From a virus: a DNA stretch of 64,000 nucleotides. How positions within the stretch are numbered: the stretch's first letter is position 1; the number at the start of each line of letters is the position of its first letter. Below, piece after piece: positions 5,744-60,384 of the stretch. The notes under the pieces were generated by a model, which saw nothing but the letters and a program-made list of their open reading frames with translations, did no database searches and was not told the DNA's origin. Both the position numbers and the translations under genes were made by a program. The stretch covers positions 28,701 through 92,700 of the IMG/VR virus record IMGVR_UViG_3300010413_000011. One strand, 5' to 3'.

Positions 5744-6485
5744 TGATTAACCTTTGTGTTCTCGCGTCGAGTTCACCTAAATGTAGTCGCTGTTTGAAAA
5801 TGATATAATCGATTTGTCCAGGACTCGCTGTCCCGTCCTCGAGACAATCCAGAGCCTCAAGGTATTTTCCGTCATCACCTAACTCGAGATCGACAGACTC
5901 GCCGTATTTCAATTTTCGAATTTCATTTTCGATTTTGTCGATCGAAATTAATTGGTTTGGTAAAGGAAATCTACCAAAACTTTTGAATCGTTTGATGTGT
6001 AATCTGATGTAGTCAGCATAAGAAATCCCATGCTCGTCTGCGATCGCTGCCGCCTTGACTAAAAAGTGATATACTTTTGAGGAAGGAGTTATAGGTCTTA
6101 AATGTTTGTTACCCAGGTGTTGAGATCTGAGCAGAGTATAAATTCGATTAAAGTGGTCAACCTTAGATTCTTGACTAACCACCGGCTTCGATGTCACTTC
6201 GAATCTTGCCAAATTGTTTAAGCGGATGGCGACAATGGAGCCATCTCTTCTAATGAGACCAGACTTCCTCAAGGTCTTCATACACCGTTTGGCATCTCTT
6301 AGTTCAATATCTAAAGTACTCGCCCATTCGCTCGCCTTCATTGGGATTTTCGATACGAATCGATATCTCATATACATCGAAACATAGAAAAATCTTGCCT
6401 CCAAAGGTAGGTCAAGTGTGTTTAAAGAGACGACAACTCGTCGAGTTTCAGCTAATACTTTTTCAGATTTCATTGAGATCCTCAT
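5706..6485 (-). CDS. hypothetical protein with N-terminal winged HTH, possibly replication initiator-like
   Basis: EWASTLDIELRDAKRCMKTLRKSGLI wHTH-like; overlaps the primase-helicase start. Confidence 0.55.
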   Translation of the reverse strand: MRISMKSEKVLAETRRVVVSLNTLDLPLEARFFYVSMYMRYRFVSKIPMKASEWASTLDIELRDAKRCMKTLRKSGLIRRDGSIVAIRLNNLARFEVTSKPVVSQESKVDHFNRIYTLLRSQHLGNKHLRPITPSSKVYHFLVKAAAIADEHGISYADYIRLHIKRFKSFGRFPLPNQLISIDKIENEIRKLKYGESVDLELGDDGKYLEALDCLEDGTASPGQIDYIIFKQRLHLGELDARTQRLINGKKKSRRFCKE

Positions 6486-6945
6486 ACGGAAAGACTACCT
6501 TGCCATCATTAGGACCTATTCGTTGGGAAAAATAAATGGGTCGATATAACGTCTGCCCTAGATCTCGGTAAAATATAAACGCGCCTAGAGATTTTACCGA
6601 CATGCCGCTAAAACAAGCACCCTGAAAAGTCAAACCAGTATCTAAAATATCGTCGACAAAAATACAGCGGCCAACCGGTCTATCTAATCTTATGTCGAGT
6701 TTAAGGAAGTGAGATAACATTACGGCGGGTATGAGACCGCCCCGGGGCTCGCCCCATAATTTCCAAAGATGGTTCGGAGACCAAACAGTTTCCTCGGGAA
6801 TAATTAGATGACCTTGAAGTTCTTTTTGTAGTCGTTCAAGTTGTCTAATATTTGTAGTAGCCAAAATTTTTTTAATATCGATTGCCATCAACTCGATGTA
6901 ATCTATATAATCCTTCCATTCAACTTTAATCGGATTCGAAGACAT
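6463..6945 (-). CDS. type I phosphoribosyltransferase (xanthine/guanine PRT-like)
   Basis: PRGGLIPAVMLSH, PRPP loop IFVDDILDTGLT, C-terminal VVFPYE. Confidence 0.85.
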   Translation of the reverse strand: MSSNPIKVEWKDYIDYIELMAIDIKKILATTNIRQLERLQKELQGHLIIPEETVWSPNHLWKLWGEPRGGLIPAVMLSHFLKLDIRLDRPVGRCIFVDDILDTGLTFQGACFSGMSVKSLGAFIFYRDLGQTLYRPIYFSQRIGPNDGKVVFPYEDLNEI

Positions 6946-7094: not shown

Positions 7095-7703
7095 ATGAAA
7101 TTCTTAATCGCAGTTTTAGGTACTCATGGCTCTGGCAAAACTGAAATCTGCCAAAAAGTCTCAAGTCTTATACGTCACGCATTCTCAGACCTATCTGTTT
7201 CCTCAGTAGATAAAAAAGATAGTGTACCGAGATCTTTGGCAGAGGCAACGCAGTTATATAAAAATATCGACCATCGAACCCAGGTAGAAATTTGTTTTAA
7301 GGTTTTAACAAATGCGATGGCCGGTCTTGTCTATTATGACGTCGTTTTTGTCGATCGACTATTGGTCGATTCTATTGCTTATATTCGAACGGCAGAAAAA
7401 GTCGATCGCGGTATTATTGCCTCTCTAGATTCAGCAATTCGTTTTTTGTTTTTCGAGAGTCCTCATATCCATACCATAGTAGCTGTTCCGGCACCGAGTT
7501 TTCCCCTACCTAAAGATAATTTCAGATTCGAAGACGAAGAGTATCGCCAATATATTTCAAGATTGATTACGCGAGAACTAATTCGAATGGCTATACCGTA
7601 TTATTTTCTTGATCAAAAATCTTTAGATGAACGAATAAGTTATCTGACGAGTTACGTCAGTTCAGCAATATCATTATCGAAATTGAAAGGAGAAAAACAT
7701 TGA
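7095..7703 (+). CDS. P-loop nucleotide/nucleoside kinase (AAA_28/dNMP kinase-like)
   Basis: GTHGSGKT Walker A; DRLLVDSIAY; lid DNFR. Confidence 0.75.
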   Translation: MKFLIAVLGTHGSGKTEICQKVSSLIRHAFSDLSVSSVDKKDSVPRSLAEATQLYKNIDHRTQVEICFKVLTNAMAGLVYYDVVFVDRLLVDSIAYIRTAEKVDRGIIASLDSAIRFLFFESPHIHTIVAVPAPSFPLPKDNFRFEDEEYRQYISRLITRELIRMAIPYYFLDQKSLDERISYLTSYVSSAISLSKLKGEKH

Positions 7704-8515
7704 AAGTAGCTCACATAGTCGGTATTAACCATTTGAATTTGGTCAGGGATAAAAATTTCCATTTAGTTCTTGCTCATCTTCTCGACGAAAGTGCCACCTA
7801 CAGAAATTTCTATAAGGAAGTAGGTAACGAAGGTGCCTTTTTAATCTTGGACAACTCTGCGTTTGAGTTAGGCGAACCTTATCCGCCAGAGGAAATGATA
7901 AAACTAGGTAACGAAATCAACGCGTCGGAAATTATGGCGCCCGAGATTTACCAAGATGGCAGAGGAACGATCGAAGTAGTCGAGGAGTTTGCCGCAAAGG
8001 TTAAAGAATTAACTAATAAGAAATGGAATATCATAGCAACCATCCATGGTAAAACCTTCGACGATTGGATGAATTGTTTCAAAGCTATTATCTCGATCAA
8101 CAACATAACCACGATTGGTTTATCTTGTAGAGCGGCAGAGTATTTCACTGACCTACGGTCGAGTTCAGTCACCACCCAAAGAACTTTTAATCGGATTGGT
8201 CTTACTCATATCCTCAATAAAACCTGCGTCGGCAAGTTTACTCCTTTGAGACAGTACCATCTATTAGGTTCCACCGATCCTGTCCTCGAGTTAACTGTTC
8301 AAACGAAATACGATTGGATAAGAAGTATTGATACGAGTTCCGCTTTTGCTCATGGTTGTCAAGGTATAAACTTTGGTACCCGGGCTCTGGCAACCGAGAG
8401 GATAGGGGATATCGATTTCAATACGCCCCACGATCCTCATAAGATAAAAACCATTGTTCACAATATGAGAATACTTGACGAATTGGCAGGAGAAGAAAAT
8501 GATTTTACCAGGTAA
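7700..8515 (+). CDS. TGT-like TIM-barrel protein (putative base-exchange enzyme)
   Basis: LILDNSAFELG, HLLG and IRSIDTSS correspond to TGT-fold DS(G), HxxG and SxDS motifs. Confidence 0.55.
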   Translation: MKVAHIVGINHLNLVRDKNFHLVLAHLLDESATYRNFYKEVGNEGAFLILDNSAFELGEPYPPEEMIKLGNEINASEIMAPEIYQDGRGTIEVVEEFAAKVKELTNKKWNIIATIHGKTFDDWMNCFKAIISINNITTIGLSCRAAEYFTDLRSSSVTTQRTFNRIGLTHILNKTCVGKFTPLRQYHLLGSTDPVLELTVQTKYDWIRSIDTSSAFAHGCQGINFGTRALATERIGDIDFNTPHDPHKIKTIVHNMRILDELAGEENDFTR

Positions 8516-9029
8516 CAAAGTAATAGACTTTATAGAAACTGATTTACCAAGGACCTACTATCCCGAAGGTGGGGTCTCTCCTGAACAATTACAACCGAAC
8601 GGAGTCGACTGTCGTTTATTTTTTGTAAGGAGAGTCGACCCGGATCGTATTATGATATTTCGTAAAAATGAGAAGGATGTACCAGAGCTGGAGATGGTCG
8701 AACCTATAATCCATAGGTCCTTTCATGAGCGCGACAAACAACACGCCTTTTTCAATTTGGAACCTGGGGCCTATAATTTTGAAATGGCCGAACGAATAAA
8801 AGTTCCTCAAGGTATTGCGGCAATGTTCTTTGGTCGGAGTACCCTTAACCGAAACGGAATACTCCTTTTGTCGTCGGTCTATGATACGGGTTATGACGGT
8901 AGAATAGGAGGGACGGCGTATGTCTGGCGGCGGATACAAATAGAAATGTTTGTTCGAGTCGGACAAATTGTTTGTTGGGAAGCTCACGAAACGAAGGAGT
9001 ATGACGGTCAATATGGCGACGGAAAGTAA
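8499..9029 (+). CDS. trimeric dUTPase / dCTP deaminase superfamily protein, probably a dUTPase
   Basis: LQPNGVD, GRSTLNRNG, VYDTGYDG, RVGQIV; lacks the ITLE catalytic Glu of Dcd; AGGAG SD before ATG 8499. Confidence 0.8.
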   Translation: MILPGNKVIDFIETDLPRTYYPEGGVSPEQLQPNGVDCRLFFVRRVDPDRIMIFRKNEKDVPELEMVEPIIHRSFHERDKQHAFFNLEPGAYNFEMAERIKVPQGIAAMFFGRSTLNRNGILLLSSVYDTGYDGRIGGTAYVWRRIQIEMFVRVGQIVCWEAHETKEYDGQYGDGK

Positions 9030-12952: not shown

Positions 12953-13870
12953 ATGATCTTAATTATCGACGGTAACAATGCGGCCTTCAGGGCTAATTCG
13001 GTTCTTACCATGAGTTGGAAGACCAAAAGGACAAGTGCCATTTTCGGAACTTTATCGATAGTTCGGTCAGTCATGAACAGAGTGGATCCTAGTAAAGTTA
13101 TCGTCGTATGGGACATCGGCGGTTCAAAATACCGAAAAAGATTGTTTCCTGAGTATAAAAAGAAACGAATCGAAAAAAGAGATGACGATGATTTCCAAAC
13201 TTTCATCGACCAAGTTCAAATACTCAGAGATCGAATCTTTCCAGTTCTAGGGATTACTCAAGCGGTAAAGTCTGGAGTCGAAGCGGATGATGTTATATAT
13301 CGTCTCGCAAAATACTACTCGGTTAAAAAGGAAAAAGTGATTATACTTTCGGGAGATACCGACTTGTATCAATTGGTGAGCAAACGAGTTTCAATAATCT
13401 CACCTAGTCGGAAACGAAACGATTTTATAACCAATAAAAACTTTACCCGGATTACTAAAGGATTGGATCAAGATCAATTTGTGTCATACAAAATGTTAGT
13501 CGGAGATCCTTCCGATGGTATCCCGGGCGTACCAGGTTTCGGTGACAAAACTTCTCGTGTGGCCTTGGGACACTATAAGTCGGCAGAGGAGGCGGTCGAG
13601 CATTATGACGAACTGGTTAAACTGATGCCTCGGATTGCCAGATATGTAACCAGTAAGAAGGCAGAGAGTATCGTTGACCGAAACCGAAAATTAATCGATT
13701 TAAGTATCTACAATCGACCGAAACGGGTAAAGGCTTCAACGAAATTATTAATTGAGTCTGAACTAAATGAACAGGAATTTCGAAAAATTTGTAAAGAGTT
13801 CGGGTTCGTTTATATACTATCTAATTTTATGGATTGGATTGAACCATTCAAAGAGTTGGACAGGGGGTGA
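12953..13870 (+). CDS. 5'-3' exonuclease / flap endonuclease (T4 RNase H-like)
   Basis: IIDGNN, YRKRLFPEYK, EADDVI, SGDTDLYQL, GDPSDGIPGVPGFG. Confidence 0.92.
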   Translation: MILIIDGNNAAFRANSVLTMSWKTKRTSAIFGTLSIVRSVMNRVDPSKVIVVWDIGGSKYRKRLFPEYKKKRIEKRDDDDFQTFIDQVQILRDRIFPVLGITQAVKSGVEADDVIYRLAKYYSVKKEKVIILSGDTDLYQLVSKRVSIISPSRKRNDFITNKNFTRITKGLDQDQFVSYKMLVGDPSDGIPGVPGFGDKTSRVALGHYKSAEEAVEHYDELVKLMPRIARYVTSKKAESIVDRNRKLIDLSIYNRPKRVKASTKLLIESELNEQEFRKICKEFGFVYILSNFMDWIEPFKELDRG

Positions 13871-14850
13871 CCATGTATGGTTATCAAATTTATCTGACCC
13901 ACGGCTGTAATCTGCGGTGTCGGCAATGTGGTGTCTGGAGGGCCAAATCGATCGGTCGGGAAAAACAATGGACCGAATGGGCAGCTATCCTACCGACCAT
14001 GGTCCAGGTTTTCGAGAAAACATTTCATCGGAAACCAGCGTTCAAATTGATGGGAGGCGAACCAACAATTTATCCGGGTTTCGAAGAAGTTTGTAGAGCA
14101 ATTAAAACACTCGGTTGTAATATTTCTGTTCTGTCGAATGTTAGTAAAACCTGGCAGTGGGAAATGTTGACTCGAGTTTTGGGAAAAGGGGATTCAATTT
14201 TCGTTTCAATGGATTTCTTTCCGAATAGAAGGAAACAATATGAGATGAGATCCGATCCGGCAGAAGAGAAGGCTTTTGCTGCCCTCCATTTCATCGAGAC
14301 CTTTCCCGACAACCAAACCGATTTCGAGGTCGGCGTAAATATTACGGTATCTTCGGATACCTTGCCTAGATTATCTGGCCTTATTGATTGTTTGGTTCAG
14401 TTGAACGCTAAGATGAATATTTGTCTTCGGCAAGGCAGCGAACCGAATGAGGACGAACTCTACCACGTTCTTAGGGCACCGAATCGAACTGGCAATTTAA
14501 ACCAGGAGGAGGTCGACCAGTTAGTCAAAATTATGCTATCCGACTTATTGCCAGTTCCAGATCTTTTTCTCGGATCAAAGGAATACATTAGGATAATTCA
14601 GGTTCACGGAGCGAATAACGATTGGCATTGTAGAGATCAACTCCACCTTCCGTATATTTATTTGGATTGCGATGGTTCGGTAATGGCGTGTCCAGACGTC
14701 GCCTTACCAGATCCTCAGGTTTTACCTTTAGCGAGTCCGACTCCTTTTGTTTGGACCGAGAGGATGTTGAAGACCTATCGTGCCAAATGTTGTGGCTGTA
14801 CTATTTCGTCAGCGATGACCGATGTTGTCGCAGCACTCTGGGAGAAATAA
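13867..14850 (+). CDS. radical SAM enzyme with C-terminal Cys-rich (Twitch/SPASM-like) region
   Basis: CNLRCRQC, GGEPT, WHC...DGSVMACP...CCGC. Confidence 0.88.
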   Translation: MTMYGYQIYLTHGCNLRCRQCGVWRAKSIGREKQWTEWAAILPTMVQVFEKTFHRKPAFKLMGGEPTIYPGFEEVCRAIKTLGCNISVLSNVSKTWQWEMLTRVLGKGDSIFVSMDFFPNRRKQYEMRSDPAEEKAFAALHFIETFPDNQTDFEVGVNITVSSDTLPRLSGLIDCLVQLNAKMNICLRQGSEPNEDELYHVLRAPNRTGNLNQEEVDQLVKIMLSDLLPVPDLFLGSKEYIRIIQVHGANNDWHCRDQLHLPYIYLDCDGSVMACPDVALPDPQVLPLASPTPFVWTERMLKTYRAKCCGCTISSAMTDVVAALWEK

Positions 14851-14851
14851 A

Positions 14852-16762
14852 ATGATACTTTCTGCTCCTAAAATTGCCCATATTGGCTTGGACAATCGAG
14901 TTTACCAAACTCATTGCCTTCATCCGAAAAATTTTTTACAATTTTTGGGAGGGCGAGGATTGAACAGTCATCTGACTTTTCAAAACCGCTCTATTAATTT
15001 CCCGATGGTTTTTATTACTCCAGGGTTGTTGACTGGAACTCTGTGTCCATCGTCGTCTCGCTGTACTATTGGTACTAATATATCACCCTCTTTAGGAAGA
15101 TGGGCTGATGGGAATCTCGGAGGATTTTTTGGAGCTGAACTAAGAAGAGCAGGTTGGAATCAAATTTGGTTAGAAGGTATTTCCGAAAAACCTATTTTAA
15201 TATATATTGAAAACCAAAAAATAAAAAGTGTTGACGCTGGTAATCTTTGGGGACTCGGAGTTCATGACACAACTGAGAGAATCCGAGAAGAGTTTGGGCC
15301 GGACGCTCAGTCTCTTGTAATCGGGCCGGCCGGAGAAACCCAGGTCGCGTACGCCTGCGTTATGTCGGGCGATAGAGCGGCAGGAGGAGGCGGTATTGGT
15401 GCCGTCCTCGGGAAAATGAAAGTCAAGGCGATCGTTGTTCGGGGAACTAGAGGTCTTGAACCTGCCCAACCCGAGGAGTTTATGGACGCTTGTCTGGCGG
15501 CTCATAAACAAGTTCGATCGAATCCTTTGTTCGGTGAGTTTTCACAATCTGGTACTTCAATTATTACATCCATTTATAAAGGAGTCAAAGCACTACCGGT
15601 TAATTATTGGGATAAAGGAGATTCGCCACACGCTTACAAATTCGAACCAGGAAATTTGAAGACGAAAGTTGTAAAAAGTCGAGCTTGCTATGGTTGTTCG
15701 ATTCATTGCTCTCATGAACTTACTTTCGGGTTCGAAGGGGTAGAGTACGAGGCGTTGAACGGGCTCGGTCTTAAAATTGGAATCACCGATCTAGACGAAT
15801 GCCTTCGTTTGATAAAATGGTTCAACAACCTGGGTCTCGATGTAGTCCAGACCTCTGGCGTTCTAGGTATGTTGATGAAAATGACCGAAGATGGCTTCGC
15901 GATGAATATGGATCGAATTAAATTTGGAGATGCTGAGGCTATTTGGACGCGAGTTGCTAGTTGGATGGATAGTAGAAGAAGAGATCTCAGTTTTTGGAAT
16001 GGTCTTGACGCCGGGTTCGAAAGATATTCTGAGATATTTCCTCCAGGTCCTGACGGAAATAAGGGCGATGTTCTTAAACGATTCCGTCGAAAGTATTCGG
16101 TCGATATTAAAAATTCAATGCCACCCAGCCTAGACTTCAGGGTTCCAGAAAACTTTGCGGCTACTATTGCTTGTATGACGGCTACTCGAGGCGCTGACCA
16201 TCTTAGAAGTTTGGCACCGATTGAGGCCTACGGTCAGTGGTACGGGAGAGAGGATCTCGAGGCGATGGCTATTCATTTTGGAATACCATCTGATATTATG
16301 AAAGAATGGTTGGACCTGGACGGGTTCGATCCTAAAATAAATTCGAAAAGTATAAGAGGAAAGGTTGCTATCATTTCTTACTTTCAAGATCAAAATGCTG
16401 TGACCGATGCCCTGGGTCTTTGTCGATTCGCCTCAAGTTGGAGAATGGGAGTCGGCCTCGAGTTGATGGCGGAGATGGTTTCGACTTTTCTTGGTATAGA
16501 TATGAACTGGTGTGGCCTGCGAGCAGTGGGCCAGAGGATAACCGTCTTAGAAAGATATCTGAACTCGAAAGTGTACGGCATGAATAAGTTCAGTGATTAT
16601 CCTCCCGAGAAATTTTTCGTAGAGCCTTTGAATGGGAGGAATCAACTCTCACATCATGACGTAAGATCAGCCCGCGATCAGTTCTATGAGTATAACGGAT
16701 ATGACGAGCAGGGATGTCCGACACCGGATACTTTTGAAAAATTAGGATTGGTTGTCAAATGA
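14852..16762 (+). CDS. aor: aldehyde:ferredoxin oxidoreductase family (W/Mo-bis-pterin) catalytic subunit
   Basis: LGGRG, GGFFGAELRRAG, IGPAGE, RAAGGGGIGAV, CYGCSIHC, EYEA, LGLD, RGADH, DALGLCRF, RITVLERYLN. Confidence 0.9.
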   Translation: MILSAPKIAHIGLDNRVYQTHCLHPKNFLQFLGGRGLNSHLTFQNRSINFPMVFITPGLLTGTLCPSSSRCTIGTNISPSLGRWADGNLGGFFGAELRRAGWNQIWLEGISEKPILIYIENQKIKSVDAGNLWGLGVHDTTERIREEFGPDAQSLVIGPAGETQVAYACVMSGDRAAGGGGIGAVLGKMKVKAIVVRGTRGLEPAQPEEFMDACLAAHKQVRSNPLFGEFSQSGTSIITSIYKGVKALPVNYWDKGDSPHAYKFEPGNLKTKVVKSRACYGCSIHCSHELTFGFEGVEYEALNGLGLKIGITDLDECLRLIKWFNNLGLDVVQTSGVLGMLMKMTEDGFAMNMDRIKFGDAEAIWTRVASWMDSRRRDLSFWNGLDAGFERYSEIFPPGPDGNKGDVLKRFRRKYSVDIKNSMPPSLDFRVPENFAATIACMTATRGADHLRSLAPIEAYGQWYGREDLEAMAIHFGIPSDIMKEWLDLDGFDPKINSKSIRGKVAIISYFQDQNAVTDALGLCRFASSWRMGVGLELMAEMVSTFLGIDMNWCGLRAVGQRITVLERYLNSKVYGMNKFSDYPPEKFFVEPLNGRNQLSHHDVRSARDQFYEYNGYDEQGCPTPDTFEKLGLVVK

Positions 16763-17379
16763 GAAAAGAACGAATTAAAAGTCTATGGAGTCATCTTACA
16801 TCGACACCGGTCGAAATCGTTCGAGGTTTTTCTCGTGCCGTTGTTTTGGTGACAAGGCAGTTAATCCTTTTAGAGAATCCTGTAGAAAGGATCTTACCGA
16901 AGTCAGCGCTCCTCTGTTCTTTTCAGCCTAAAAAACTTTCATACGAAAAGGCTGACTCATACCTGGGTTTCCTCCTAACCAAAAGGATTAGAGTCGATTA
17001 TACTAAATGTACGGGCTGTAAGGCATGCGAGTTGGCGTGCTCTTTAAACCATTACGGACGCTGCGAACCCGAGGAATCGAGAATCAGAATTGACCGACAA
17101 TGTAAAAAGTCGGCAGAGTTCTTTCCTTTCGTTTGTCAACACTGTACGATGCCCGAATGCGTTGTGGTCTGCCCGTCTGGAGCTTGTACGAGAACAAAAG
17201 AAGGTCTCGTAGTCGTAGACCCGGAACTTTGTATTGGTTGTAAACTTTGTATAATCGTTTGTCCGCTGAGTTCAGCGGCATGGAATTGGAGATTAGGTCA
17301 ATCGATGAGATGCGATCTTTGCGAAGGTGAACCGGTCTGTGTCAAGGTTTGCTCGACTAAGGCCATCGATTTTCATTGA
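16759..17379 (+). CDS. multi-[4Fe-4S] ferredoxin subunit (AorA/DmsB/HydN-like)
   Basis: CTGCKACELAC, CQHCTMPECVVVCP, CIGCKLCIIVCP, CDLC...CVKVC; ATGA overlap with AOR. Confidence 0.88.
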   Translation: MRKERIKSLWSHLTSTPVEIVRGFSRAVVLVTRQLILLENPVERILPKSALLCSFQPKKLSYEKADSYLGFLLTKRIRVDYTKCTGCKACELACSLNHYGRCEPEESRIRIDRQCKKSAEFFPFVCQHCTMPECVVVCPSGACTRTKEGLVVVDPELCIGCKLCIIVCPLSSAAWNWRLGQSMRCDLCEGEPVCVKVCSTKAIDFH

Positions 17380-17390
17380 GGAGATAGATC

Positions 17391-17651
17391 ATGGTAGAAA
17401 CAGAGCAACAAAAAGTCTATGAGGCTCTAGTTGGTTTAGGATATATTTACGGAGTGAATTGCGCACTAGAGCATATAGGCATTGACCATCGAATAATGCC
17501 AGAACAGGATGACGAGAAAGAAGGAATACTCTATCCTTGGTACGATAAAGGACCATCGGGACAAATGGAAAAGAAATTAAAACAATTGGCAAGTAATTTG
17601 GTTCAAGATGGAATTTCAGTAGCTGACGTGGAACAATGGGGTTCGTTTTGA
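17391..17651 (+). CDS. hypothetical protein
   Basis: GAGGAG SD; lies within the operon. Confidence 0.65.
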   Translation: MVETEQQKVYEALVGLGYIYGVNCALEHIGIDHRIMPEQDDEKEGILYPWYDKGPSGQMEKKLKQLASNLVQDGISVADVEQWGSF

Positions 17652-17679
17652 TCCCTAAAGGTCAAAGAAGGAGAAGATT

Positions 17680-19257
17680 ATGAAATGGAATGAAGGAATC
17701 TTTAAGGCAAGAGAATTTCCAGACGAGCCGTTGAGTATGTTTTCTTGCCTAGCGGAATTGTGTAATTCGCAACCATCGGTCCCCTGGAATTATGCTGGTC
17801 GAATGATTCGAGTAACCGAAAAAGTTTCGATCGACTACGAGATAATGAAATTCGTTCGCGCTTCGGCTGACGATCCCTCTGGATTTAGCCCCGGGTTCAT
17901 ATTCGAGAATGTTTCGAGTGAGATGGCACCAGATCCGAAAACGACTCGATATCCAATCTCTGTTGTCGCTGGAATGTATGGAACCGAGGCACGAGTAAGT
18001 CGTATATTGGATTGGTGTTTAGGAACCAAAGAAAAATTCGACTTAAGTACTCCGGCCTGGCGAAAATATCAGCGAGCGTTGAACAGAACGTCACATGGCG
18101 TGGTTCGGATTTTTCCCGAAAGAGACGACTTAGGTCATGTATACGACATTCGATACGAACTCCAAGACCTTCCGATTTGTCTTCACAACGAAAGAGACGG
18201 AGGTCGATTCATCACCGGAGGTGTCCAGATCGTCTGGGATCCGGAATTCGAATGTTATGTCTCTGGTATTCACCGAATGAAGGTCATCGATAAAAATACT
18301 CTCGGGTGTTTGGCTACCGGCGAAAGAAGGATCGGTAGAGCGATAATGAAATGGCATGAACGAGGATTTAAGGCACCTGTTATTACATTAATAGGAGCCG
18401 CACCTTGCGACGTTTTCGCGTCTCAAGCCAAAGTACCTCATAACACGGATAAGTATGCTGTCGCAGATCGCTTCACACCCGGAAACGAGAAGAGAGATTT
18501 TTGTGGTTGGACTCCTTCCAAACATGCGAAATACGCTCCCGACCACTTACATATTATCCCTACAGATTCTGAAATTGTTATTTTGGGATTAGTTCCATTA
18601 GGCGAACCGAACAAACCAAACCTTATTAACGACAACCCGTTTGGGGAATTTCCTGGTACCTATTCCTTTTCGAATACTTCCGCGGCTTGGAGAGTAGAAG
18701 TAGAATATGTTATGACCAGATCCGACGCACCGATCTATCAAACCATGACCACCGGATTCCCTGTGCTCGAGGATCATATTCTTTGTGGCACGGCGAATGT
18801 TCCTTACCTCTTCGAAATTCTTCAAAGAGCCTGTTCAGAAGTGGTCGATATTAGCTTGGGAAAAGAAGGCAACTATGTTTTCGATGCTCACGTTTCCATT
18901 AAAAAGAGAATGTCTGGCGAAGCGCGCAATGTTATTTTAGCAGCGCTCTCGACCGTCACTATAAAAAGTGTTTGGATATACGACGACGACATCGACGTTC
19001 ATAATCCTCGTGACCGGCAGTTCGCATGGAACACGAGATACCAGCCTGCGACCGATACAATTATTATTGGCCATCCTTTGGTTGGTTCGAGTCTCGATCC
19101 ATCTTGTCCTGTCTTTCGGCACACGACTAAGGTAGGTTTTGACTGTACCAAACCTTTAGGTCAGGAGGATCGATACAAAAAGGCTTTGTGGCCAAAGGAT
19201 GAAATAGAAATCTATTCGAAAAAAGTACTCGATTTAATCGATAAGTGGGAGGACTAA
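17680..19257 (+). CDS. ubiD: UbiD family prFMN-dependent (de)carboxylase
   Basis: LPICLHNERDGGRFITGG, GIHRM, SEIVILG, DNPFGEFPGTY, YDDDIDVHNP, SSLDPS, KVGFDCTKP. Confidence 0.9.
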   Translation: MKWNEGIFKAREFPDEPLSMFSCLAELCNSQPSVPWNYAGRMIRVTEKVSIDYEIMKFVRASADDPSGFSPGFIFENVSSEMAPDPKTTRYPISVVAGMYGTEARVSRILDWCLGTKEKFDLSTPAWRKYQRALNRTSHGVVRIFPERDDLGHVYDIRYELQDLPICLHNERDGGRFITGGVQIVWDPEFECYVSGIHRMKVIDKNTLGCLATGERRIGRAIMKWHERGFKAPVITLIGAAPCDVFASQAKVPHNTDKYAVADRFTPGNEKRDFCGWTPSKHAKYAPDHLHIIPTDSEIVILGLVPLGEPNKPNLINDNPFGEFPGTYSFSNTSAAWRVEVEYVMTRSDAPIYQTMTTGFPVLEDHILCGTANVPYLFEILQRACSEVVDISLGKEGNYVFDAHVSIKKRMSGEARNVILAALSTVTIKSVWIYDDDIDVHNPRDRQFAWNTRYQPATDTIIIGHPLVGSSLDPSCPVFRHTTKVGFDCTKPLGQEDRYKKALWPKDEIEIYSKKVLDLIDKWED

Positions 19258-19258
19258 A

Positions 19259-19663
19259 ATGGCAAAGAAGAAAAGTTTAAACAATAGGGAAAGGGAAATC
19301 GGACGTAAGTTAGGAGTTACCCGGAGGGCTGAACACGACTATGCGACAGAGTTTGATCCTTTCGAACAAGGATACCGAGAGTCCATGGAACACGAGTCTG
19401 ACGAATTCAAATACGTTCTGCCCGGATGTTTCGGTAGGATGAATTTTTGGCCTCCTCGAGAAGAGTTGAAGGCCGTGTCTGGCATGGACGAAGGTTTCGT
19501 AATTCAAAAGGGAGTTGCTCAGTATTTGGAAGGTGAGAGACAAGCCGGGATTGTCAAAAAGTGTTTAGGTTGTTCTCAATACCAGCGATGTGCTTTGGCT
19601 ACCGTAGTTGGTAAAACTTCCTCAATCCGAGAGAAAACTAAACCTACTCCCGTAGACGAATAA
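19259..19663 (+). CDS. hypothetical Cys-containing protein
   Basis: PGCFG...KCLGCSQYQRC; GGAGG SD. Confidence 0.65.
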   Translation: MAKKKSLNNREREIGRKLGVTRRAEHDYATEFDPFEQGYRESMEHESDEFKYVLPGCFGRMNFWPPREELKAVSGMDEGFVIQKGVAQYLEGERQAGIVKKCLGCSQYQRCALATVVGKTSSIREKTKPTPVDE

Positions 19664-19683
19664 TTTTTGAGACAGGAGGAATT

Positions 19684-20649
19684 ATGAAAATCGAATTAAT
19701 GCGCCACACGGTTGAACCAGAAGAGCTGTTGGAAGAACTGGTAGAGCTTAGTTACCGGACGCAACACTTCCCGAAACACCCTGCTCTTGTCGAATTTAAG
19801 AGTGGTCGTCAAGTTCCTTTGACCCAATTGAAAAATCTTACCATGATTCCGAAACCCGGTACTGTGATCCCTGGGTTTGAAAAAGACGACGTAGAAGTTG
19901 TTAAGGTGATCCCCAGGACAGCAGAGAAGGCAGTCAGGTTCGCCATCGCCATCGGACATTTCGCTTTGTTCCGTCAGGTAACTGTAACCTGGAGAGTCGA
20001 ACTCAGCAGGAAATCTGTTCTTCATTATTTGAGATACCAACATACAGCAGAGAACATGGTGTCACAAAAATACCTCGACCAAGGTCAGTTCGAATTTATA
20101 ATGCCGACAACCCGAGATTATCCTCCCGAGGAACTCATGGTCTATAAAGAAGCAATGCAAACGATTCAGTCATATTATGAACGCCTTCGGAATTTCGGCT
20201 GGGACCCGGAGGATGCTCGACTGGTTTACCCGAACTCTGCTCTTCAAAAATTTATCTTCACCGCTAATATGGAAACCATGCGTCGGCTATTTGATATCCT
20301 ATGCGACGAGGACTACGTCGATGAGATGCATCGGTTCGGTTTGGCCATGTTGGCTACCATTAAAAAAGTTATGCCAGCGTTCGTATATGATTACAGATTC
20401 TATTCGAGGAATGACGACGGACATATTTATGCGAAGCGTCGGAGAAGAAAAGGTGGAGACAACGTTAAAGTGAATTGGACTGATCCGAATTGGATGGAGG
20501 AAGATGAGAAACGAGAAACCGACGAAGTTTGTCGACTCCAAGAAAAAATACCTAATGAGTTAATAAATTTTGCGAATGAAGGTCAACGATTCTTCACTGT
20601 AGTTCCTGAAAACGAAATTCCAGAACCGGAACATTGGGAAACAGAATGA
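19684..20649 (+). CDS. thyX: divergent ThyX-like flavin-dependent thymidylate synthase homologue
   Basis: IGHFALF, SRKSVLHYLRYQH..SQKY, PEDARLVYPN, TANM; the RHR signature is altered. Confidence 0.75.
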   Translation: MKIELMRHTVEPEELLEELVELSYRTQHFPKHPALVEFKSGRQVPLTQLKNLTMIPKPGTVIPGFEKDDVEVVKVIPRTAEKAVRFAIAIGHFALFRQVTVTWRVELSRKSVLHYLRYQHTAENMVSQKYLDQGQFEFIMPTTRDYPPEELMVYKEAMQTIQSYYERLRNFGWDPEDARLVYPNSALQKFIFTANMETMRRLFDILCDEDYVDEMHRFGLAMLATIKKVMPAFVYDYRFYSRNDDGHIYAKRRRRKGGDNVKVNWTDPNWMEEDEKRETDEVCRLQEKIPNELINFANEGQRFFTVVPENEIPEPEHWETE

Positions 20650-20825
20650 AAGTAGTCGCAACACAACTAAAACTCGAGAACATAGAAATTCTCCACAATG
20701 CGAAGAAGGGAGATACGCTCTCCCTAAAAATAATTAATACGCAGGAAGTGCCACTTGATGAAGACGGACTCGACCCAGACAGCTGTCTCTTGGTTCTCTT
20801 CGGACGATTGGGAACCGGGAACTAA
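20646..20825 (+). CDS. small hypothetical protein
   Basis: ATGA overlap with the ThyX-like stop codon. Confidence 0.45.
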   Translation: MKVVATQLKLENIEILHNAKKGDTLSLKIINTQEVPLDEDGLDPDSCLLVLFGRLGTGN

Positions 20826-21897
20826 CGATAGAATAGGTTTTGAAAAAGTTTGCAATAAAGGAGTGCGCCGAGACACTTACAACGGTTTATACTTTAAGGG
20901 TGGATCAGGCGCCTCTGAATTTTTCAAAACCGAGCCAGATCAAAAGCAGATCAAAATTCATCGAACCAAGATCTTCTTAACCACTACTCGAGCACAACAC
21001 ATGTGGGGCCTTCTCGACGCGAACTACCCTTACATTTTAATGTCGTTTTGGTACTACAAGACCGTGACAAATGTTTTCGGTTCCCTCCGGAATGCCTTTG
21101 CTGCTCGAGATAAAAACATCGACGATTTCGAAATTATGGTAGATAGCGGCTCGTACAGTGCTACGGTCAAAGGTACCTCGGTAGATCTGGATACTTATAT
21201 TGAATGGCTCTACCACGAAGAGGATAATGTCGATTGGTATGTTAACCTCGATACTCAGTTCAAACCAGAAGAGGGACTTCGAAACTGGGCGATCCTTTGT
21301 GCGAACGGATTACATGACGCCATTCATGTCCACCATAGACCAGAGCCTTGGAAGTACTGGGATATTATAGCAGATCATTGTGGAGAGTTTGGAGGTCTTA
21401 GTCCGATGCCTCGAGCAAAGAGAGGCGTTAAACTCGAGTACTTTACCAAAGCTCATTCAATGCACCCACAGAAGAAACTTCATTGGTTTGGCTCTGTCGA
21501 TAAAGAGTTGGCCAAAATGTTCGATGTATATTCTATGGACTGCTCGAGTGCTGACGCGGTCGCTTATCGCGGGATTGTTTGGACTCCTTGGGGAGCGGTT
21601 AACCTGGGTTTTAACCCGAACTACAGTAATCACATTGATCGCTTACCTCTTGACATCCGCTCTAAGGTCACCGAATGGTTTATGACACATGGTTTTGAGC
21701 TTCATGATTTAAGGCCCGGGAGACCCTATATGCCTTCGCATAGATTCAGAATTTATTTCAACGCACTGGGTTATCTCGCGTCCATGGTCGAGATTGAAAA
21801 AGAGAAAAGTTTAATTGAGTTACCAGATCCAGAATGGATTCGGTCTTCGGAAATTTATACTAATTATGAAAGTGAGTTACCAAAAGGATGGAAGTGA
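20755..21897 (+). CDS. TGT/DpdA-like base-exchange protein, paralog 1
   Basis: ILMSFWY, MVDSGSYS, YVNLD, IHVHH, LHWFG, YSMDCSS; start uncertain. Confidence 0.7.
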   Translation: MMKTDSTQTAVSWFSSDDWEPGTNDRIGFEKVCNKGVRRDTYNGLYFKGGSGASEFFKTEPDQKQIKIHRTKIFLTTTRAQHMWGLLDANYPYILMSFWYYKTVTNVFGSLRNAFAARDKNIDDFEIMVDSGSYSATVKGTSVDLDTYIEWLYHEEDNVDWYVNLDTQFKPEEGLRNWAILCANGLHDAIHVHHRPEPWKYWDIIADHCGEFGGLSPMPRAKRGVKLEYFTKAHSMHPQKKLHWFGSVDKELAKMFDVYSMDCSSADAVAYRGIVWTPWGAVNLGFNPNYSNHIDRLPLDIRSKVTEWFMTHGFELHDLRPGRPYMPSHRFRIYFNALGYLASMVEIEKEKSLIELPDPEWIRSSEIYTNYESELPKGWK

Positions 21898-22124
21898 TGG
21901 CAACCTCGTATTTTAGAGGTCACAAAGGTTGGTACGACAATATTGAAAAAGTATGGAAGTATTTCGATACCAATCTTCCTATCGATCCTCGTCGCCCTTG
22001 TGTCCGATGTGGTAAAGAACCCACTCCCGAAGGTCATGACGCGTGTTTGGGACGGCTAGACGGTGCGTGGTCAGCCTGTTGTGGTCATGGAGTAATAGAA
22101 CCATATTTAAAAATTACATTATGA
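21888..22124 (+). CDS. small Cys-rich phage protein
   Basis: RPCVRCG..TPEGHDACLG.L.G..SACCGHG. Confidence 0.7.
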   Translation: MEVMATSYFRGHKGWYDNIEKVWKYFDTNLPIDPRRPCVRCGKEPTPEGHDACLGRLDGAWSACCGHGVIEPYLKITL

Positions 22125-23143
22125 GAAACCCTACAACATTTAAAGTCGGAACCGGTCGAGTCATGGTCCCGCACGATCACAAAAAGACTCGACTTTTTCT
22201 TGCCGTTAGTAACATGACAAGTTTTAGACCGATCGTCCGCTATACCTATCCATATCTTTTGATGAGTTATGCCTTTCTGAGAAGGTGGTGTCGGAGTTGG
22301 CGCTGTAACTCGATGAAGGAACTCTTTGCTTTATATGGTGGTGACATTCGAGACTTCAAAATAATGATTGACAGCGGTTCCTATACAGTCACGACTAAAG
22401 GAATTAATATAACAATTGACGACTATATAGAATTCCTATATGAAGAATGGGGTTCCTATAATTGGTATGTCAATTTGGATCTCCAATTTAAACCCGAAGT
22501 TGGCCTCGAGAACTATTTAATAATGTGCGCCAACGGCCTTCACGACGCAATTCATGTTCATCACCGACCGGAACCCTGGAAGTATTGGGATATGATTTGT
22601 AACGATATGGGTCCGTATGCCGGGCTCAGTCCCATGCCCAGGGCTTCAATGACGATCAAGAGAGAATATTTTTTGAAGGCCCATTCAATGCATCCCGATG
22701 TAAAAGTTCATTGGTTTGGGTCTGGCGCAATAACATTAATCAAACAGTTCGGTCCTTACTCTGTAGATGTTTCCTCTTATACTCAGATGGCTGGAATGGG
22801 TCATTGCTATTTTCCTTTTGGTACTTTCTACTTTGGTAGAAATACTTCGATTAAAAATTATTATGGAAACCTCGATAGTTCAATTCGAAAACAAATAAGA
22901 AAGTATCTCAAAACCGTTCCCCATTTTGTCGAAGATCGATTTATTAAACCCGAAGATCTGTTGTCACCAGTTCAAGATGAAACGGAAGCTCGTACCGCAG
23001 TCAATGTATGGTACTTCATGACTCATCTTCAATCGGCAATAAACGAAGAAAGAAATCTTTTGTCTCTTGAGGATGGTGACTTAATTCGCTACTCACCGTG
23101 GTATCACGGATGGGAAGATAAACCAATAGAGAAATGGAGTTGA
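22121..23143 (+). CDS. TGT/DpdA-like base-exchange protein, paralog 2
   Basis: LLMSYAF, MIDSGSYT, YVNLD, VHWFG, YSVDVSS; shares CANGLHDAIHVHHRPEPWKYWD with paralog 1; ATGA overlap. Confidence 0.7.
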   Translation: MRNPTTFKVGTGRVMVPHDHKKTRLFLAVSNMTSFRPIVRYTYPYLLMSYAFLRRWCRSWRCNSMKELFALYGGDIRDFKIMIDSGSYTVTTKGINITIDDYIEFLYEEWGSYNWYVNLDLQFKPEVGLENYLIMCANGLHDAIHVHHRPEPWKYWDMICNDMGPYAGLSPMPRASMTIKREYFLKAHSMHPDVKVHWFGSGAITLIKQFGPYSVDVSSYTQMAGMGHCYFPFGTFYFGRNTSIKNYYGNLDSSIRKQIRKYLKTVPHFVEDRFIKPEDLLSPVQDETEARTAVNVWYFMTHLQSAINEERNLLSLEDGDLIRYSPWYHGWEDKPIEKWS

Positions 23144-60230: not shown

Positions 60231-60384
60231 GTATAATCGGAAGAGGAGGAGGTCATCATGTCGGACCTACAATCGTTACGACATTCTGAACGCGAACAGC
60301 GCGCTATCAATTCGATAATGTCGGCGTACGAAGAGTATTTAACTCTCTCGCCGATTGAGTTAACCGAAGAAGAGGAGAAGATTG

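What the first reader, a model, noticed from the sequence alone, without database searches (positions are those of the whole stretch)
13867..23143. Candidate novel phage nucleobase-modification pathway built from redox and (de)carboxylation enzymes inside the replication operon
Seen: a tightly coupled run of genes sits between the 5' nuclease and NrdJ. It encodes radical SAM, AOR, an Fe-S subunit, UbiD, a divergent ThyX and two TGT/DpdA-fold paralogs. A PRTase, kinase, third TGT-fold protein and dUTPase lie just before polA, GT2 and a sulfatase-like protein lie downstream, and UbiX is at 60.4 kb. Established: DpdA/TGT enzymes swap guanine for 7-deazaguanine derivatives; UbiD/prFMN enzymes reversibly decarboxylate (hetero)aromatic acids such as pyrrole-2-carboxylate; AORs interconvert aldehydes and carboxylates; phage modification genes usually lie among replication genes. 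Inference: the set processes a base through carboxy, formyl and decarboxylated states, either a 7-carboxy-7-deazaguanine-derived purine or a C5-substituted pyrimidine. The product would be inserted by base exchange or via PRT, kinase, RNR and PolA. I know of no described phage modification system using AOR plus UbiD. No folE/queD/queE/queC is visible here, so any deazapurine precursor would come from the host or from elsewhere in the genome.
Basis: partly seen in the sequence, partly recalled or inferred. Interest (0 to 1): 0.92.

Follow-up and report, generated by a model that had tools for sequence, protein, structure and literature searches.

The report
Phage guanine-swap system with tungsten/prFMN enzymes
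An uncultured phage carries enzymes for swapping guanine in DNA but not the usual genes that make the replacement base; in their place it and a family of distant relatives keep a tungsten-type aldehyde oxidoreductase, a UbiD/UbiX decarboxylase and an altered ThyX, which points to an undescribed way of making or trimming a modified DNA base.

Summary
The genes at 13867-23143 are rSAM, AOR, an Fe-S subunit, UbiD, a ThyX-fold protein and two TGT-fold proteins. UbiX is at 60.4 kb.

New points:
- The "third TGT-fold" gene (7700-8515) is a DpdA3 homologue. DpdA3 is the transglycosylase of phages that fully replace G with 7-deazaguanines. A PRTase shared with phage immuto_2-6A lies beside it.
- Ten metagenome contigs are syntenic phage replication modules, 30-47% identical to this one. 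They keep AOR, UbiD and ThyX-like, plus UbiX in one contig and DpdA3 in two. An aminotransferase and a SLOG protein stand where this phage has rSAM and the Fe-S subunit.
- The two DpdA-like paralogues are lineage-specific.
- No FolE, QueD, QueC or ThyA on the 92.7-kb contig; FolE, QueE, QueF and DpdL of DpdA3 phages find no homologue.
- The ThyX-like clade has lost the RHR motif and the arginines equivalent to R90 and R174.

Best reading (about 0.4): a DpdA3-type guanine-replacement system. Its base is supplied or trimmed through aminomethyl/formyl/carboxy/H states at C7 of 7-deazaguanine. The chemistry is inferred, not shown.

No paper describing such a system turned up. This scan has already noted the aminotransferase variant on other DNA (e1-2927970).

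The parts
6463..6945 (-). Small phosphoribosyltransferase-like gene
   Evidence: Weak match to phrog_8995. 36% identical over 92 aa to the PRTase gp211 in the 7-deazaguanine cluster of Flavobacterium phage immuto_2-6A.
7095..7703 (+). P-loop (d)NMP-kinase-like gene
   Evidence: AAA_28 4e-08. phrog_2107 thymidylate kinase 5e-11. Weak similarity to the kinase next to DpdA3 in CP220.
7700..8515 (+). DpdA3-type DNA guanine transglycosylase homologue
   Evidence: tblastn hits to immuto_2-6A 'DNA guanine transglycosylase' (5e-16), phiST CGPG_00065 (4e-08) and CP220 gp056 (2e-09). The reciprocal searches also hit. It shares all invariant residues of the family: LDN, HLLG, S.D. Homologues are present in L088 and L093.
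8475..9029 (+). dCTP-deaminase/dUTPase-fold gene
   Evidence: DCD 1.5e-13, dUTPase 1.5e-05. Conserved next to DpdA3 in L088.
13867..14850 (+). Radical SAM enzyme with Cys-rich SPASM/twitch-like C-terminus (specific to this lineage)
   Evidence: No homologue in L085-L094 or next to 80 cellular AORs.
14852..16762 (+). AOR-family tungsten/molybdenum-pterin aldehyde oxidoreductase
   Evidence: CxxCxxxC, TATRGADHLRS, DALGLC and NNLGLD motifs are intact. Start at 14852.
16759..17379 (+). Poly-[4Fe-4S] electron-transfer subunit of the AOR
   Evidence: Fer4_11 3e-14. Homologues flank AOR in 46 of 80 cellular loci. Absent from L085-L094.
17391..17651 (+). 86-aa ORF of unknown function
   Evidence: No family hit.
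17680..19257 (+). UbiD-family prFMN-dependent (de)carboxylase
   Evidence: GIHR and DNPFGE (the E(D)-R-E motif) are conserved in all phage relatives.
19259..19663 (+). 134-aa ORF of unknown function
   Evidence: No family hit.
19684..20649 (+). Divergent ThyX-fold flavoprotein (new clade)
   Evidence: Thy1 3e-23. ThyX fold. Clade-wide motif changes: LRY, SQKY, DCLC. 38-47% identical homologues lie next to UbiD in 9 of 10 related loci.
20758..21897 (+). DpdA-like transglycosylase paralogue 1
   Evidence: phrog_887 1.4e-15. 41% identical to paralogue 2. Keeps the invariant residues D, D, H, D.
21888..22124 (+). 78-aa ORF between the paralogues
   Evidence: ORF list. Its ends overlap both neighbours.
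22121..23143 (+). DpdA-like transglycosylase paralogue 2 (start probably ATG 22121; the longest ORF starts at 22043)
   Evidence: phrog_887 5.8e-21. Model pLDDT 86.8. TGT fold. Invariant D110, D146, H223, D242.
60382..60999 (+). UbiX flavin prenyltransferase (makes prFMN for UbiD)
   Evidence: Flavoprotein family 4.5e-36. A UbiX homologue sits between PolA and SSB in the related locus L091.

Best explanation
The finding is one half of a phage DNA guanine-replacement system of the DpdA3 type.

Shown:
- The phage encodes a DpdA3 homologue with a PRTase-like and a kinase-like gene, two further DpdA-like transglycosylases, an AOR with its Fe-S subunit, UbiD plus UbiX, and a ThyX-fold protein of a new clade.
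- No FolE, QueD or QueC domain was found on the contig, and FolE, QueE, QueF and DpdL of known DpdA3 phages have no homologue there.
- AOR, UbiD and ThyX-like, together with UbiX and DpdA3 where the contig reaches them, form a module conserved in distantly related phages.

Inferred:
- The module interconverts the one-carbon substituent at C7 of 7-deazaguanine.
- The thermodynamically easy order starts from a host-made precursor such as preQ1 (7-aminomethyl).
- The precursor is oxidised to 7-formyl-7-deazaguanine by the PLP aminotransferase in the sister phages, and perhaps by the SPASM-type radical SAM enzyme here.
- AOR with its Fe-S subunit then oxidises the aldehyde to 7-carboxy-7-deazaguanine.
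- UbiD, using prFMN from UbiX, decarboxylates that acid to 7-deazaguanine. The acid is an analogue of indole-3-carboxylate.
- The base is put into DNA in place of guanine by DpdA3. Alternatively it enters through PRTase, kinase, NrdJ and PolA.
- The two extra DpdA-like enzymes may insert intermediates or serve other sequence contexts.
- The ThyX-like enzyme either re-functionalises the freed nucleophilic carbon or methylates a pyrimidine other than dUMP.
For: - DpdA3 homology, in both directions, with the family's invariant residues.
- Known DpdA3 phages carry dDG, dADG or fdPreQ1 at 100% of G (PMC10516641).
- The PRTase is shared with the immuto_2-6A deazaguanine cluster.
- The TGT fold and the conserved Asp residues of the two paralogues.
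- No QueC, QueD, FolE or ThyA domain on the 92.7-kb contig, which runs from the portal gene to a cut terminase gene. FolE, QueE, QueF, DpdL and DpdN of known phages have no homologue here.
- Ten syntenic phage loci at 30-47% identity keep UbiD next to ThyX-like (9 of 10), with AOR upstream in 6, UbiX in 1 and DpdA3 in 2, always inside the PolA-SSB-NrdJ-RecA operon.
- In L093 the gene order is rearranged, yet DpdA3 lies about 700 nt from ThyX-like.
- The sister loci add a class V aminotransferase and a SLOG protein between AOR and UbiD. This completes an amine/aldehyde/acid/H series that matches preQ1, formyl-DG, CDG and DG.
- The cofactor and catalytic motifs of AOR and UbiD are intact in all phage copies.
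- The nearest solved UbiD enzymes act on heteroaromatic acids: HmfF and the indole-3-carboxylate decarboxylase AnInD.
Against: - No substrate was tested. Nothing in the sequences identifies the base.
- Without FolE, QueD and QueE the deazapurine skeleton must come from the host. That may not sustain full replacement of G.
- The relatives are one phage lineage with conserved gene order, so adjacency there is partly shared ancestry.
- This phage lacks the aminotransferase and SLOG genes. The step that would make the aldehyde rests on an unassigned radical SAM enzyme, whose nearest look-alikes are generic viral rSAM clusters.
- A UbiD-AOR pair also exists in a Chloroflexota MAG with no nucleotide genes nearby, so the pair can act on non-nucleobase substrates.
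- The ThyX-like gene has no necessary role in the C7 scheme.
- A close relative (AOR 80%, UbiD 78%, a 12,050-base contig) seems to lack the DpdA-like pair.
Confidence: 0.4

Rival explanations
1. Pyrimidine C5 route. The module works on dUMP or dCMP (or the free pyrimidine). UbiD carboxylates C5-H, AOR reduces 5-carboxy to 5-formyl with low-potential ferredoxin, and the aminotransferase of the sister phages gives 5-aminomethyl. The ThyX-like enzyme handles a related C5 one-carbon step. The product enters DNA through kinase, NrdJ and PolA. The DpdA-type genes would then be a separate system.
For: - ThyX-like is the best-conserved partner, lies directly beside UbiD, and belongs to a family that acts at C5 of a pyrimidine nucleotide.
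- The kinase, the dCTP-deaminase/dUTPase-like gene, NrdJ and PolA are all in the same operons.
- 5-Carboxypyrimidines are alpha,beta-unsaturated acids, the classic UbiD substrate type (established chemistry; my knowledge).
- In the clade, the arginine that reads the uracil carbonyls (R174 of T. maritima ThyX) is replaced within a conserved DCLC motif. This could mean a change of base, for example to cytosine.
Against: - It needs both UbiD and AOR to run in their unfavourable directions.
- It leaves unexplained why DpdA3 and the PRTase shared with a deazaguanine phage travel with the module.
- It gives no reason for the presence of a SLOG (base-releasing or nucleotide-binding) protein in the sister phages.
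- In the downhill direction the route starting from a ThyX product would be futile.
Confidence: 0.2
2. No link to DNA modification. AOR with its Fe-S subunit and UbiD/UbiX are auxiliary metabolic genes taken as a pair from anaerobic hosts, for aldehyde or aromatic-acid turnover or to reduce ferredoxin for the rSAM enzyme and other reductive steps. ThyX-like is simply the phage's thymidylate synthase. The DpdA-type enzymes use host preQ0 on their own.
For: - A UbiD-AOR pair exists in a Chloroflexota MAG among Fe-S, HdrD-like and cupin genes.
- The Fe-S subunit is the ordinary AOR partner.
- ThyX-like is the only thymidylate-synthase-family gene on the contig.
- In long phage operons, adjacency alone is weak evidence.
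Against: - The module is kept at the same place in the replication operon across phages that share only 30-47% identity. This is unlike the variable position of typical auxiliary genes.
- The phage also keeps its own UbiX (L091).
- The ThyX-like clade has lost the RHR motif and the R90 and R174 equivalents needed for dUMP methylation.
- AOR and UbiD are otherwise absent from bona fide deposited phage genomes, and the pattern scans of IMG/VR found none. They are therefore not common phage cargo.
Confidence: 0.15
3. Folate-independent methyl supply. The AOR acts like a formaldehyde:ferredoxin oxidoreductase and delivers formaldehyde from formate to the ThyX-like flavoprotein, which uses it directly as the methylene donor.
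For: - FOR is an AOR-family enzyme.
- ThyX soaked with formaldehyde has been solved (PDB 7ndw, listed).
- The ThyX-like clade lacks several canonical motif residues.
Against: - It gives no role to UbiD/UbiX, or to the aminotransferase and SLOG genes of the sister phages.
- The phage AOR is closer to AOR proper than to FOR.
Confidence: 0.05

Closest known systems
Phage 7-deazaguanine DNA modification with DpdA3 (Cellulophaga phage phiST, dDG; Campylobacter phage CP220, dADG; Flavobacterium phage immuto_2-6A, fdPreQ1; Cui, Hutinet et al. 2023, PMC10516641)
   Same: A DpdA3 homologue with the family's invariant residues. A small PRTase is shared with immuto_2-6A, and a kinase gene lies next to DpdA3 as in CP220 and immuto_2-6A.
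   Different: No homologue of FolE, QueD, QueE, QueC, QueF, DpdL or DpdN was found. In their place stand AOR, an Fe-S subunit, UbiD, UbiX, a ThyX-like gene and an rSAM gene, plus two extra DpdA-like paralogues.
DpdL, the proposed CDG decarboxylase of phiST (a QueD paralogue)
   Same: It would carry out the same proposed reaction (CDG to 7-deazaguanine) that I assign to UbiD.
   Different: It has an unrelated fold and cofactor: a metal-dependent T-fold against prFMN-dependent UbiD. DpdL activity could not be shown in E. coli (PMC10516641). There is no DpdL homologue here.
DpdA1/DpdA2 phage transglycosylases (e.g. Streptococcus phage MS1/Dp-1 type, phrog_887)
   Same: TGT-type TIM barrel with the conserved DSG, D, H and D residues.
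   Different: Only about 24% identical. The paralogues form a very small clade of their own: seven relatives among 1.84 billion cluster representatives of about 15 billion proteins score better than 1e-30, against a large family at 1e-29 and weaker. They occur as a tandem pair, here and on one other contig.
UbiD/UbiX heteroaromatic acid decarboxylases (HmfF, AnInD, HudA/PA0254)
   Same: Three-domain UbiD with the E(D)-R-E motif and a co-encoded UbiX.
   Different: About 25% identity to solved members. It is encoded by a phage inside a replication operon, and its substrate is unknown.
Tungsten AOR with a poly-ferredoxin subunit (P. furiosus AOR 1aor; bacterial AOR with an Fe-S subunit, 8c0z)
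   Same: Both AFOR domains, the cluster cysteines, the pterin motifs and an adjacent Fe-S subunit.
   Different: At most 35-37% identity to any cellular AOR. It lies on its own long branch in the tree. No FAD subunit is present, and it is phage-encoded.
Flavin-dependent thymidylate synthase ThyX
   Same: The fold and part of the motif set: GH, SRK, S-Q-K-Y, R..PN.
   Different: RHR is replaced by LRY. The R90 equivalent is Lys. The R165 and R174 equivalents are replaced (TN..Q.RH..DCLC). There is an extra conserved N-terminal ~85 residues.

Membership tests
DpdA3 subfamily of DNA guanine transglycosylases (gene 7700-8515) | Sequence homology to the founding members (phiST CGPG_00065, CP220 gp056, immuto_2-6A gp206) | tested here: met
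   tblastn 5e-16, 4e-08 and 2e-09. The annotated genes were confirmed. Reciprocal hits 8e-20, 1e-10 and 7e-14.
DpdA3 subfamily of DNA guanine transglycosylases (gene 7700-8515) | Family-invariant residues (LDN, HLLG, S.D) | tested here: met
   D51, N52, H187, L189, G190, S209 and D211 are invariant in the six-sequence alignment A7.
DpdA3 subfamily of DNA guanine transglycosylases (gene 7700-8515) | Co-encoded 7-deazaguanine synthesis genes (FolE, QueD, QueE) | tested here: not met
   No FolE, PTPS or QueC domain on the 92.7-kb contig. No homologue of phage FolE, QueE or DpdL.
DpdA3 subfamily of DNA guanine transglycosylases (gene 7700-8515) | Replacement of dG by a 7-deazaguanine in virion DNA | not testable with these tools
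   Needs nucleoside mass spectrometry. The phage is uncultured.
TGT/DpdA superfamily (paralogues 20758-21897 and 22121-23143) | TGT-type TIM-barrel fold | tested here: met
   Model pLDDT 86.8, pTM 0.84. The 50 best listed PDB matches are all TGT or ArcTGT. Phage 'queuine tRNA-ribosyltransferases' are the best BFVD matches.
TGT/DpdA superfamily (paralogues 20758-21897 and 22121-23143) | Catalytic and substrate-binding aspartates (equivalents of Z. mobilis TGT D102, D156, D280) | tested here: met
   D110, D146 and D242 are invariant in 60 homologues and in both paralogues. Their equivalence to D102, D156 and D280 is inferred from their order on successive strand ends, not from a superposition.
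TGT/DpdA superfamily (paralogues 20758-21897 and 22121-23143) | Match to the Pfam TGT model | tested here: not met
   No Pfam hit for either paralogue. Only 1 of 60 relatives reaches PF01702. This is usual for DpdA proteins.
AOR family (PF01314/PF02730) | Both domains, four cluster cysteines, pterin-binding motifs | tested here: met
   (C289, C292, C296, C534; RGADH; DALGLC; NNLGLD).
AOR family (PF01314/PF02730) | Tungsten or molybdenum pterin cofactor and aldehyde/acid activity | not testable with these tools
   The cofactor must come from the host. No cofactor-synthesis gene was noticed among the contig's ORFs that were scanned, but none was specifically searched for.
UbiD family | Three UbiD domains and the E(D)-R-E catalytic motif | tested here: met
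   GIHR and D-N-P-F-G-E are conserved in the window and in relatives.
UbiD family | Partner UbiX for prFMN | tested here: met
   UbiX at 60382-60999. UbiX is inside the module in L091.
ThyX (flavin-dependent thymidylate synthase) | ThyX fold | tested here: met
   Thy1 3e-23. Profile match to M. tuberculosis and C. glutamicum ThyX at 1e-19 to 6e-20. All best fold matches are ThyX (the model has only pLDDT 66).
ThyX (flavin-dependent thymidylate synthase) | ThyX motif RHRX7-8S and the dUMP-binding arginines (T. maritima R90, R174) | tested here: not met
   RHR is replaced by R-Y-Q (the clade has LRY). S-x-R-Y is replaced by S-Q-K-Y. The last arginine is replaced within DCLC (DILC in the window copy). 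All nine clade members show these changes. I therefore do not file it as a thymidylate synthase.
QueE (CDG synthase) for the rSAM gene | Specific similarity to QueE beyond the rSAM core | tested here: not met
   Only 27.7 bits to the QueE-like PHROG, over the core. phiST QueE finds nothing in the contig. The Cys-rich SPASM/twitch-like tail is unlike QueE.
Tungsten-cofactor oxidoreductase rSAM maturase (TIGR04317) for the rSAM gene | Score above the family cut-off | tested here: not met
   33.5 bits against a cut-off of 380. No homologue next to 80 cellular AOR genes.

The most novel reading that the evidence does not exclude
The phage family makes a DNA base that has not been seen before. Candidates are 7-formyl-, 7-methyl- or 7-hydroxymethyl-7-deazaguanine, or a CO2-derived 5-formyl- or 5-aminomethyl-pyrimidine. 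It would do so with a tungsten/molybdenum-pterin oxidoreductase, a prFMN enzyme and a re-purposed ThyX. This would be the first use of these three cofactor chemistries in nucleic-acid modification, and a route independent of the FolE/QueD/QueE/QueC pathway.
Probability: 0.3. Interest if true: 0.92.

Novelty: new variant of a known kind. Interest (0 to 1): 0.8.

Why it matters
- All known phage 7-deazaguanine systems build the base with FolE, QueD, QueE and QueC. The decarboxylase step to dDG is still unproven: DpdL was inactive when tested.
- A phage lineage that keeps DpdA3 but swaps the whole biosynthetic set for AOR, UbiD/UbiX and a ThyX-like enzyme offers a concrete candidate for that step.
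- It may also be a salvage or tailoring route from host queuosine precursors, or lead to a new base.
- It would extend tungsten-pterin and prFMN enzymology to nucleic-acid chemistry.
- It would show that strictly anaerobic cofactor chemistry is used by viruses.
- It provides new enzymes for making 7-substituted deazapurines.
- The altered ThyX clade is a ready test case for how flavin-dependent methylases change substrate.

Tried and rejected
**Searches for relatives that found nothing**
- Close DNA or AOR relatives in GenBank phages: none.
- IMG/VR scans with the single AOR and UbiD proteins, and with alignments of AOR, the DpdA-like paralogues, UbiD and ThyX-like: no confirmed relative.
- First metagenome scan, aimed at the 12,050-base contig that carries the 80%-identical AOR: nothing.

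The Logan and ENA contigs holding the other DpdA-like pairs (16,499 and 25,187 bases) and the 20,372-base AOR+UbiD contig could not be read.
- The genome search could not reach the record behind L088.

**Checks that led nowhere**
- A sample of 401 Planctomycetota genomes gave only ordinary ThyX matches with the ThyX-like profile. No mis-binned phage turned up.
- A tree of the DpdA-like clade could not order the duplication.
- Trees of AOR and UbiD place the window's copies outside the well-supported clade of the aminotransferase-type phages, but the deep nodes are weak. I make no claim of independent capture.

**Ideas rejected**
- rSAM as QueE, or as the tungsten-cofactor maturase.
- rSAM as the maturase of the sulfatase-like protein: that protein has Thr, not Cys or Ser, at the nucleophile position.
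- The 271-aa gene as a dihydroorotate-dehydrogenase-like enzyme: the hit is only 20 bits, below the cut-off.
- A profile comparison of the 271-aa gene with the DpdA-like profile gave only 4% probability, although the motifs line up. Its DpdA3 identity rests.

Full report
**Where the window lies**

The window is bases 28701-92700 of a 92.7-kb IMG/VR virus record. The first 28.7 kb encode the portal, head protease, capsid, tape measure and tail fibre. The last ORF of the window is a terminase large subunit cut by the contig end. The contig is therefore probably close to a whole siphovirus-like genome, although CheckV estimates 68%. G+C is even, 0.40-0.51, with no island at the finding.

**Check of the observation**

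- Pfam gives Radical_SAM, AFOR_N plus AFOR_C, a poly-ferredoxin, all three UbiD domains, Thy1 and NrdJ.
- Upstream lie a primase-helicase, a kinase-like gene, a dCTP-deaminase/dUTPase-like gene, UDG-PolA, gp32 and a 5' nuclease.
- Downstream lie RecA, GT2, Mre11/Rad50-like genes, a sulfatase-family gene and, at 60.4 kb, UbiX.
- The two 'TGT-fold' ORFs have no Pfam hit but match phrog_887, 'queuine tRNA-ribosyltransferase'.
- With a 60-sequence alignment, paralogue 2 folds with pLDDT 86.8. The 50 best listed PDB matches are all tRNA-guanine or archaeosine transglycosylases. The best viral matches are phage DpdA-type proteins.
- D110, D146, H223 and D242 are invariant in the 60 homologues.
- The AOR most likely starts at ATG 14852, behind a GGGAG, one codon after the rSAM stop.

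**The key gene lies outside the finding**

- It matches the annotated 'DNA guanine transglycosylase' of Flavobacterium phage immuto_2-6A (5e-16), CGPG_00065 of Cellulophaga phage phiST and gp056 of Campylobacter phage CP220.
- These are exactly the proteins on which the DpdA3 subfamily was defined. Their phages replace all G by fdPreQ1, dDG or dADG (PMC10516641).
- The reciprocal searches hit the window gene, and the family's invariant residues are kept.
- The small minus-strand ORF at 6463-6945 is 36% identical to the PRTase inside the immuto_2-6A deazaguanine cluster.
- A kinase gene abuts DpdA3 here, as in CP220 and immuto_2-6A.
- Yet the contig has no QueC, PTPS/QueD, GTP cyclohydrolase I or ThyA domain.
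- FolE, QueE, QueF, DpdL and DpdN of the known phages find nothing in it.

**Rarity**

- AOR has no match in 50,697 deposited phage records.
- UbiD and UbiX hits in that collection are bacterial contigs or unannotated fragments.
- Pattern scans of IMG/VR found no relatives.
- Literature searches for DpdA with UbiX, for UbiD with AOR and phage, for viral AOR as an auxiliary gene, and for 7-formyl-7-deazaguanine found no description of such a system.

**Relatives**

Nearest homologues of AOR and UbiD:
- The nearest AOR (80%) and the nearest UbiD (78%) lie together on one 12,050-base JGI contig.
- The next AORs are at most 35-37% identical.
- The single GTDB genome of that subfamily, a Chloroflexota MAG, has a UbiD gene directly upstream of the AOR. 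A UbiD-AOR pair therefore also exists in cells.

Ten metagenome contigs were recovered with a UbiD relative as query. They proved to be syntenic phage replication modules. Their gene order is:
- DpdA3-like, dUTPase-like, UDG-PolA, (UbiX), gp32, AOR;
- then a class V aminotransferase, a small ORF and a SLOG protein;
- then UbiD, a small ORF, ThyX-like, NrdJ and RecA.

Conservation across these ten contigs:
- Identity to the window proteins is 27-31% for AOR, 30-40% for UbiD, 38-47% for ThyX-like, 35-42% for NrdJ and 24-30% for PolA.
- ThyX-like follows UbiD in 9 of 10 loci.
- AOR precedes UbiD in the 6 loci that reach far enough.
- DpdA3-like genes are present in the two loci that extend to that region. 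In L093 the order is rearranged, but DpdA3 still lies about 700 nt after ThyX-like.
- None of the ten has the rSAM, the Fe-S subunit or the DpdA-like pair.
- The window phage has no aminotransferase or SLOG gene.

I could verify its gene order on my own loci, but I could not verify that they are the same genomes.

**The DpdA-like pair**

- The pair belongs to a very small clade: seven relatives among 1.84 billion cluster representatives score better than 1e-30.
- One other contig also carries two copies.
- One relative comes from a Tara Oceans mesopelagic sample.
- No DpdA-like protein from the 12,050-base sister contig appeared in the search, although that contig should reach about 6 kb beyond ThyX-like. 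The pair therefore looks like a recent accessory. This is an inference from contig lengths, because the contig itself could not be read.

**State of the enzymes**

- The AOR keeps the four cluster cysteines, RGADH and the DxxGxC motif in the window copy and most relatives.
- UbiD keeps GIHR and D-x-P-F-G/A-E in the window copy and in 8 of the 9 related phage copies.
- The nearest solved UbiD enzymes are the furan-dicarboxylate decarboxylase HmfF, the indole-3-carboxylate decarboxylase AnInD and a phenolic acid decarboxylase. They score too similarly to choose among them.
- The ThyX-like protein has the ThyX fold.
- All nine members of its clade replace RHR by LRY and S-x-R-Y by S-Q-K-Y. They replace N-x-R...R by TN..Q.RH..DCLC. 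They also add a conserved N-terminal segment.
- The lost arginines correspond to T. maritima R90 and R174. Both have been studied as point mutants in solved ThyX structures (entries listed). I do not file this protein as a thymidylate synthase.
- The rSAM has a Cys-rich SPASM/twitch-like tail. Its nearest look-alikes are viral rSAM clusters and AslB-type dehydrogenases. It is neither QueE nor the tungsten-cofactor maturase.

**Mechanism**

What is shown is gene content, conservation and intact catalytic motifs. The rest is inference.

The four activities found in the family form a one-carbon series:
- aminotransferase: amine to aldehyde;
- AOR: aldehyde to acid;
- UbiD: aryl acid to C-H;
- DpdA3: base exchange in DNA.

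This series maps onto preQ1, 7-formyl-7-deazaguanine, CDG and 7-deazaguanine. Three of these four are already known as phage DNA bases, and dDG is the base of the DpdA3 phage phiST. Run in that order, every enzyme works in its favourable direction, and the missing FolE/QueDEC genes are explained by salvage of a host precursor. CDG is a pyrrole-3-carboxylate fused to a pyrimidine, that is, an analogue of indole-3-carboxylate (my chemical reasoning).

In the window phage the rSAM dehydrogenase-like enzyme may replace the aminotransferase. The Fe-S subunit may carry away the AOR's electrons. I give this reading about 0.4.

Weak points of this reading:
- host supply may be too small for full replacement;
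- ThyX-like has no necessary role in it;
- synteny within one phage lineage is not independent evidence;
- a cellular UbiD-AOR pair shows that other substrates are possible.

Rival readings:
- a pyrimidine C5 route with uphill carboxylation and reduction (0.2);
- unrelated auxiliary metabolism, with the DpdA enzymes using host preQ0 (0.15);
- formaldehyde supply to ThyX-like (0.05).

**Verdict**

The system is best described as a new variant of the DpdA-type guanine-replacement systems, with an unprecedented enzyme set for base supply or tailoring. Interest is high. No paper describing it turned up in the searches. It gives testable candidates for the unproven CDG decarboxylation step, and it may lead to a new DNA base.

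Noticed in passing
window 8950-11613 and 61609-62274: The family A DNA polymerase carries an N-terminal UDG-superfamily domain. A second stand-alone UDG-family gene lies near the terminase. The UDG-PolA fusion is also present in the related loci L088, L091 and L093.
   Followed up: partly
window 32909-33979: The sulfatase-family protein has Thr-Leu-Pro-Ala-Val where sulfatases have Cys/Ser-x-Pro-x-Arg. It looks like a Thr-nucleophile alkaline-phosphatase-superfamily enzyme (phosphodiesterase or phosphotransferase type), not a formylglycine sulfatase.
   Followed up: partly
window 62981-64000 and L002:395-2170: The terminase large subunit is cut by the contig end, and the portal gene is the second ORF at the contig start. 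The 92.7-kb record is probably nearly complete, despite the 68% estimate.
   Followed up: no
L002:12804-15185 (contig coordinates, upstream of the window): A 793-aa protein with several glycosyltransferase-like segments sits inside the structural module. It is separate from the single GT2 at window 27182-28114.
   Followed up: no
L004:1-9031 (Chloroflexota MAG JAMCWX010000069.1): A cellular cluster: UbiD (cut by the contig end), AOR, a ThiS/MoaD-like protein, an HdrD-like CCG Fe-S protein, an M29-like protein, a cupin, a ferredoxin, a second AOR and an Fe-S subunit. It is an uncharacterised UbiD-AOR pathway in an anaerobe, and a possible source of the phage pair.
   Followed up: partly
L088:12888-13475: In one related phage locus a Methyltransf_24 gene is inserted between ThyX-like and NrdJ. 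This is the slot where the window phage has its two DpdA-like genes.
   Followed up: no
L088:9472-10008, L085:4256-4897: The sister phages encode a YAcAr/SLOG protein between the aminotransferase and UbiD. Some relatives in the SLOG/LOG superfamily release free bases from nucleotides (my knowledge), which would suit a base-exchange enzyme. There is no homologue in the window phage.
   Followed up: partly
window 21888-22124: A 78-aa ORF overlaps the end of DpdA-like paralogue 1 and the probable start (22121) of paralogue 2. Its function is unknown.
   Followed up: no
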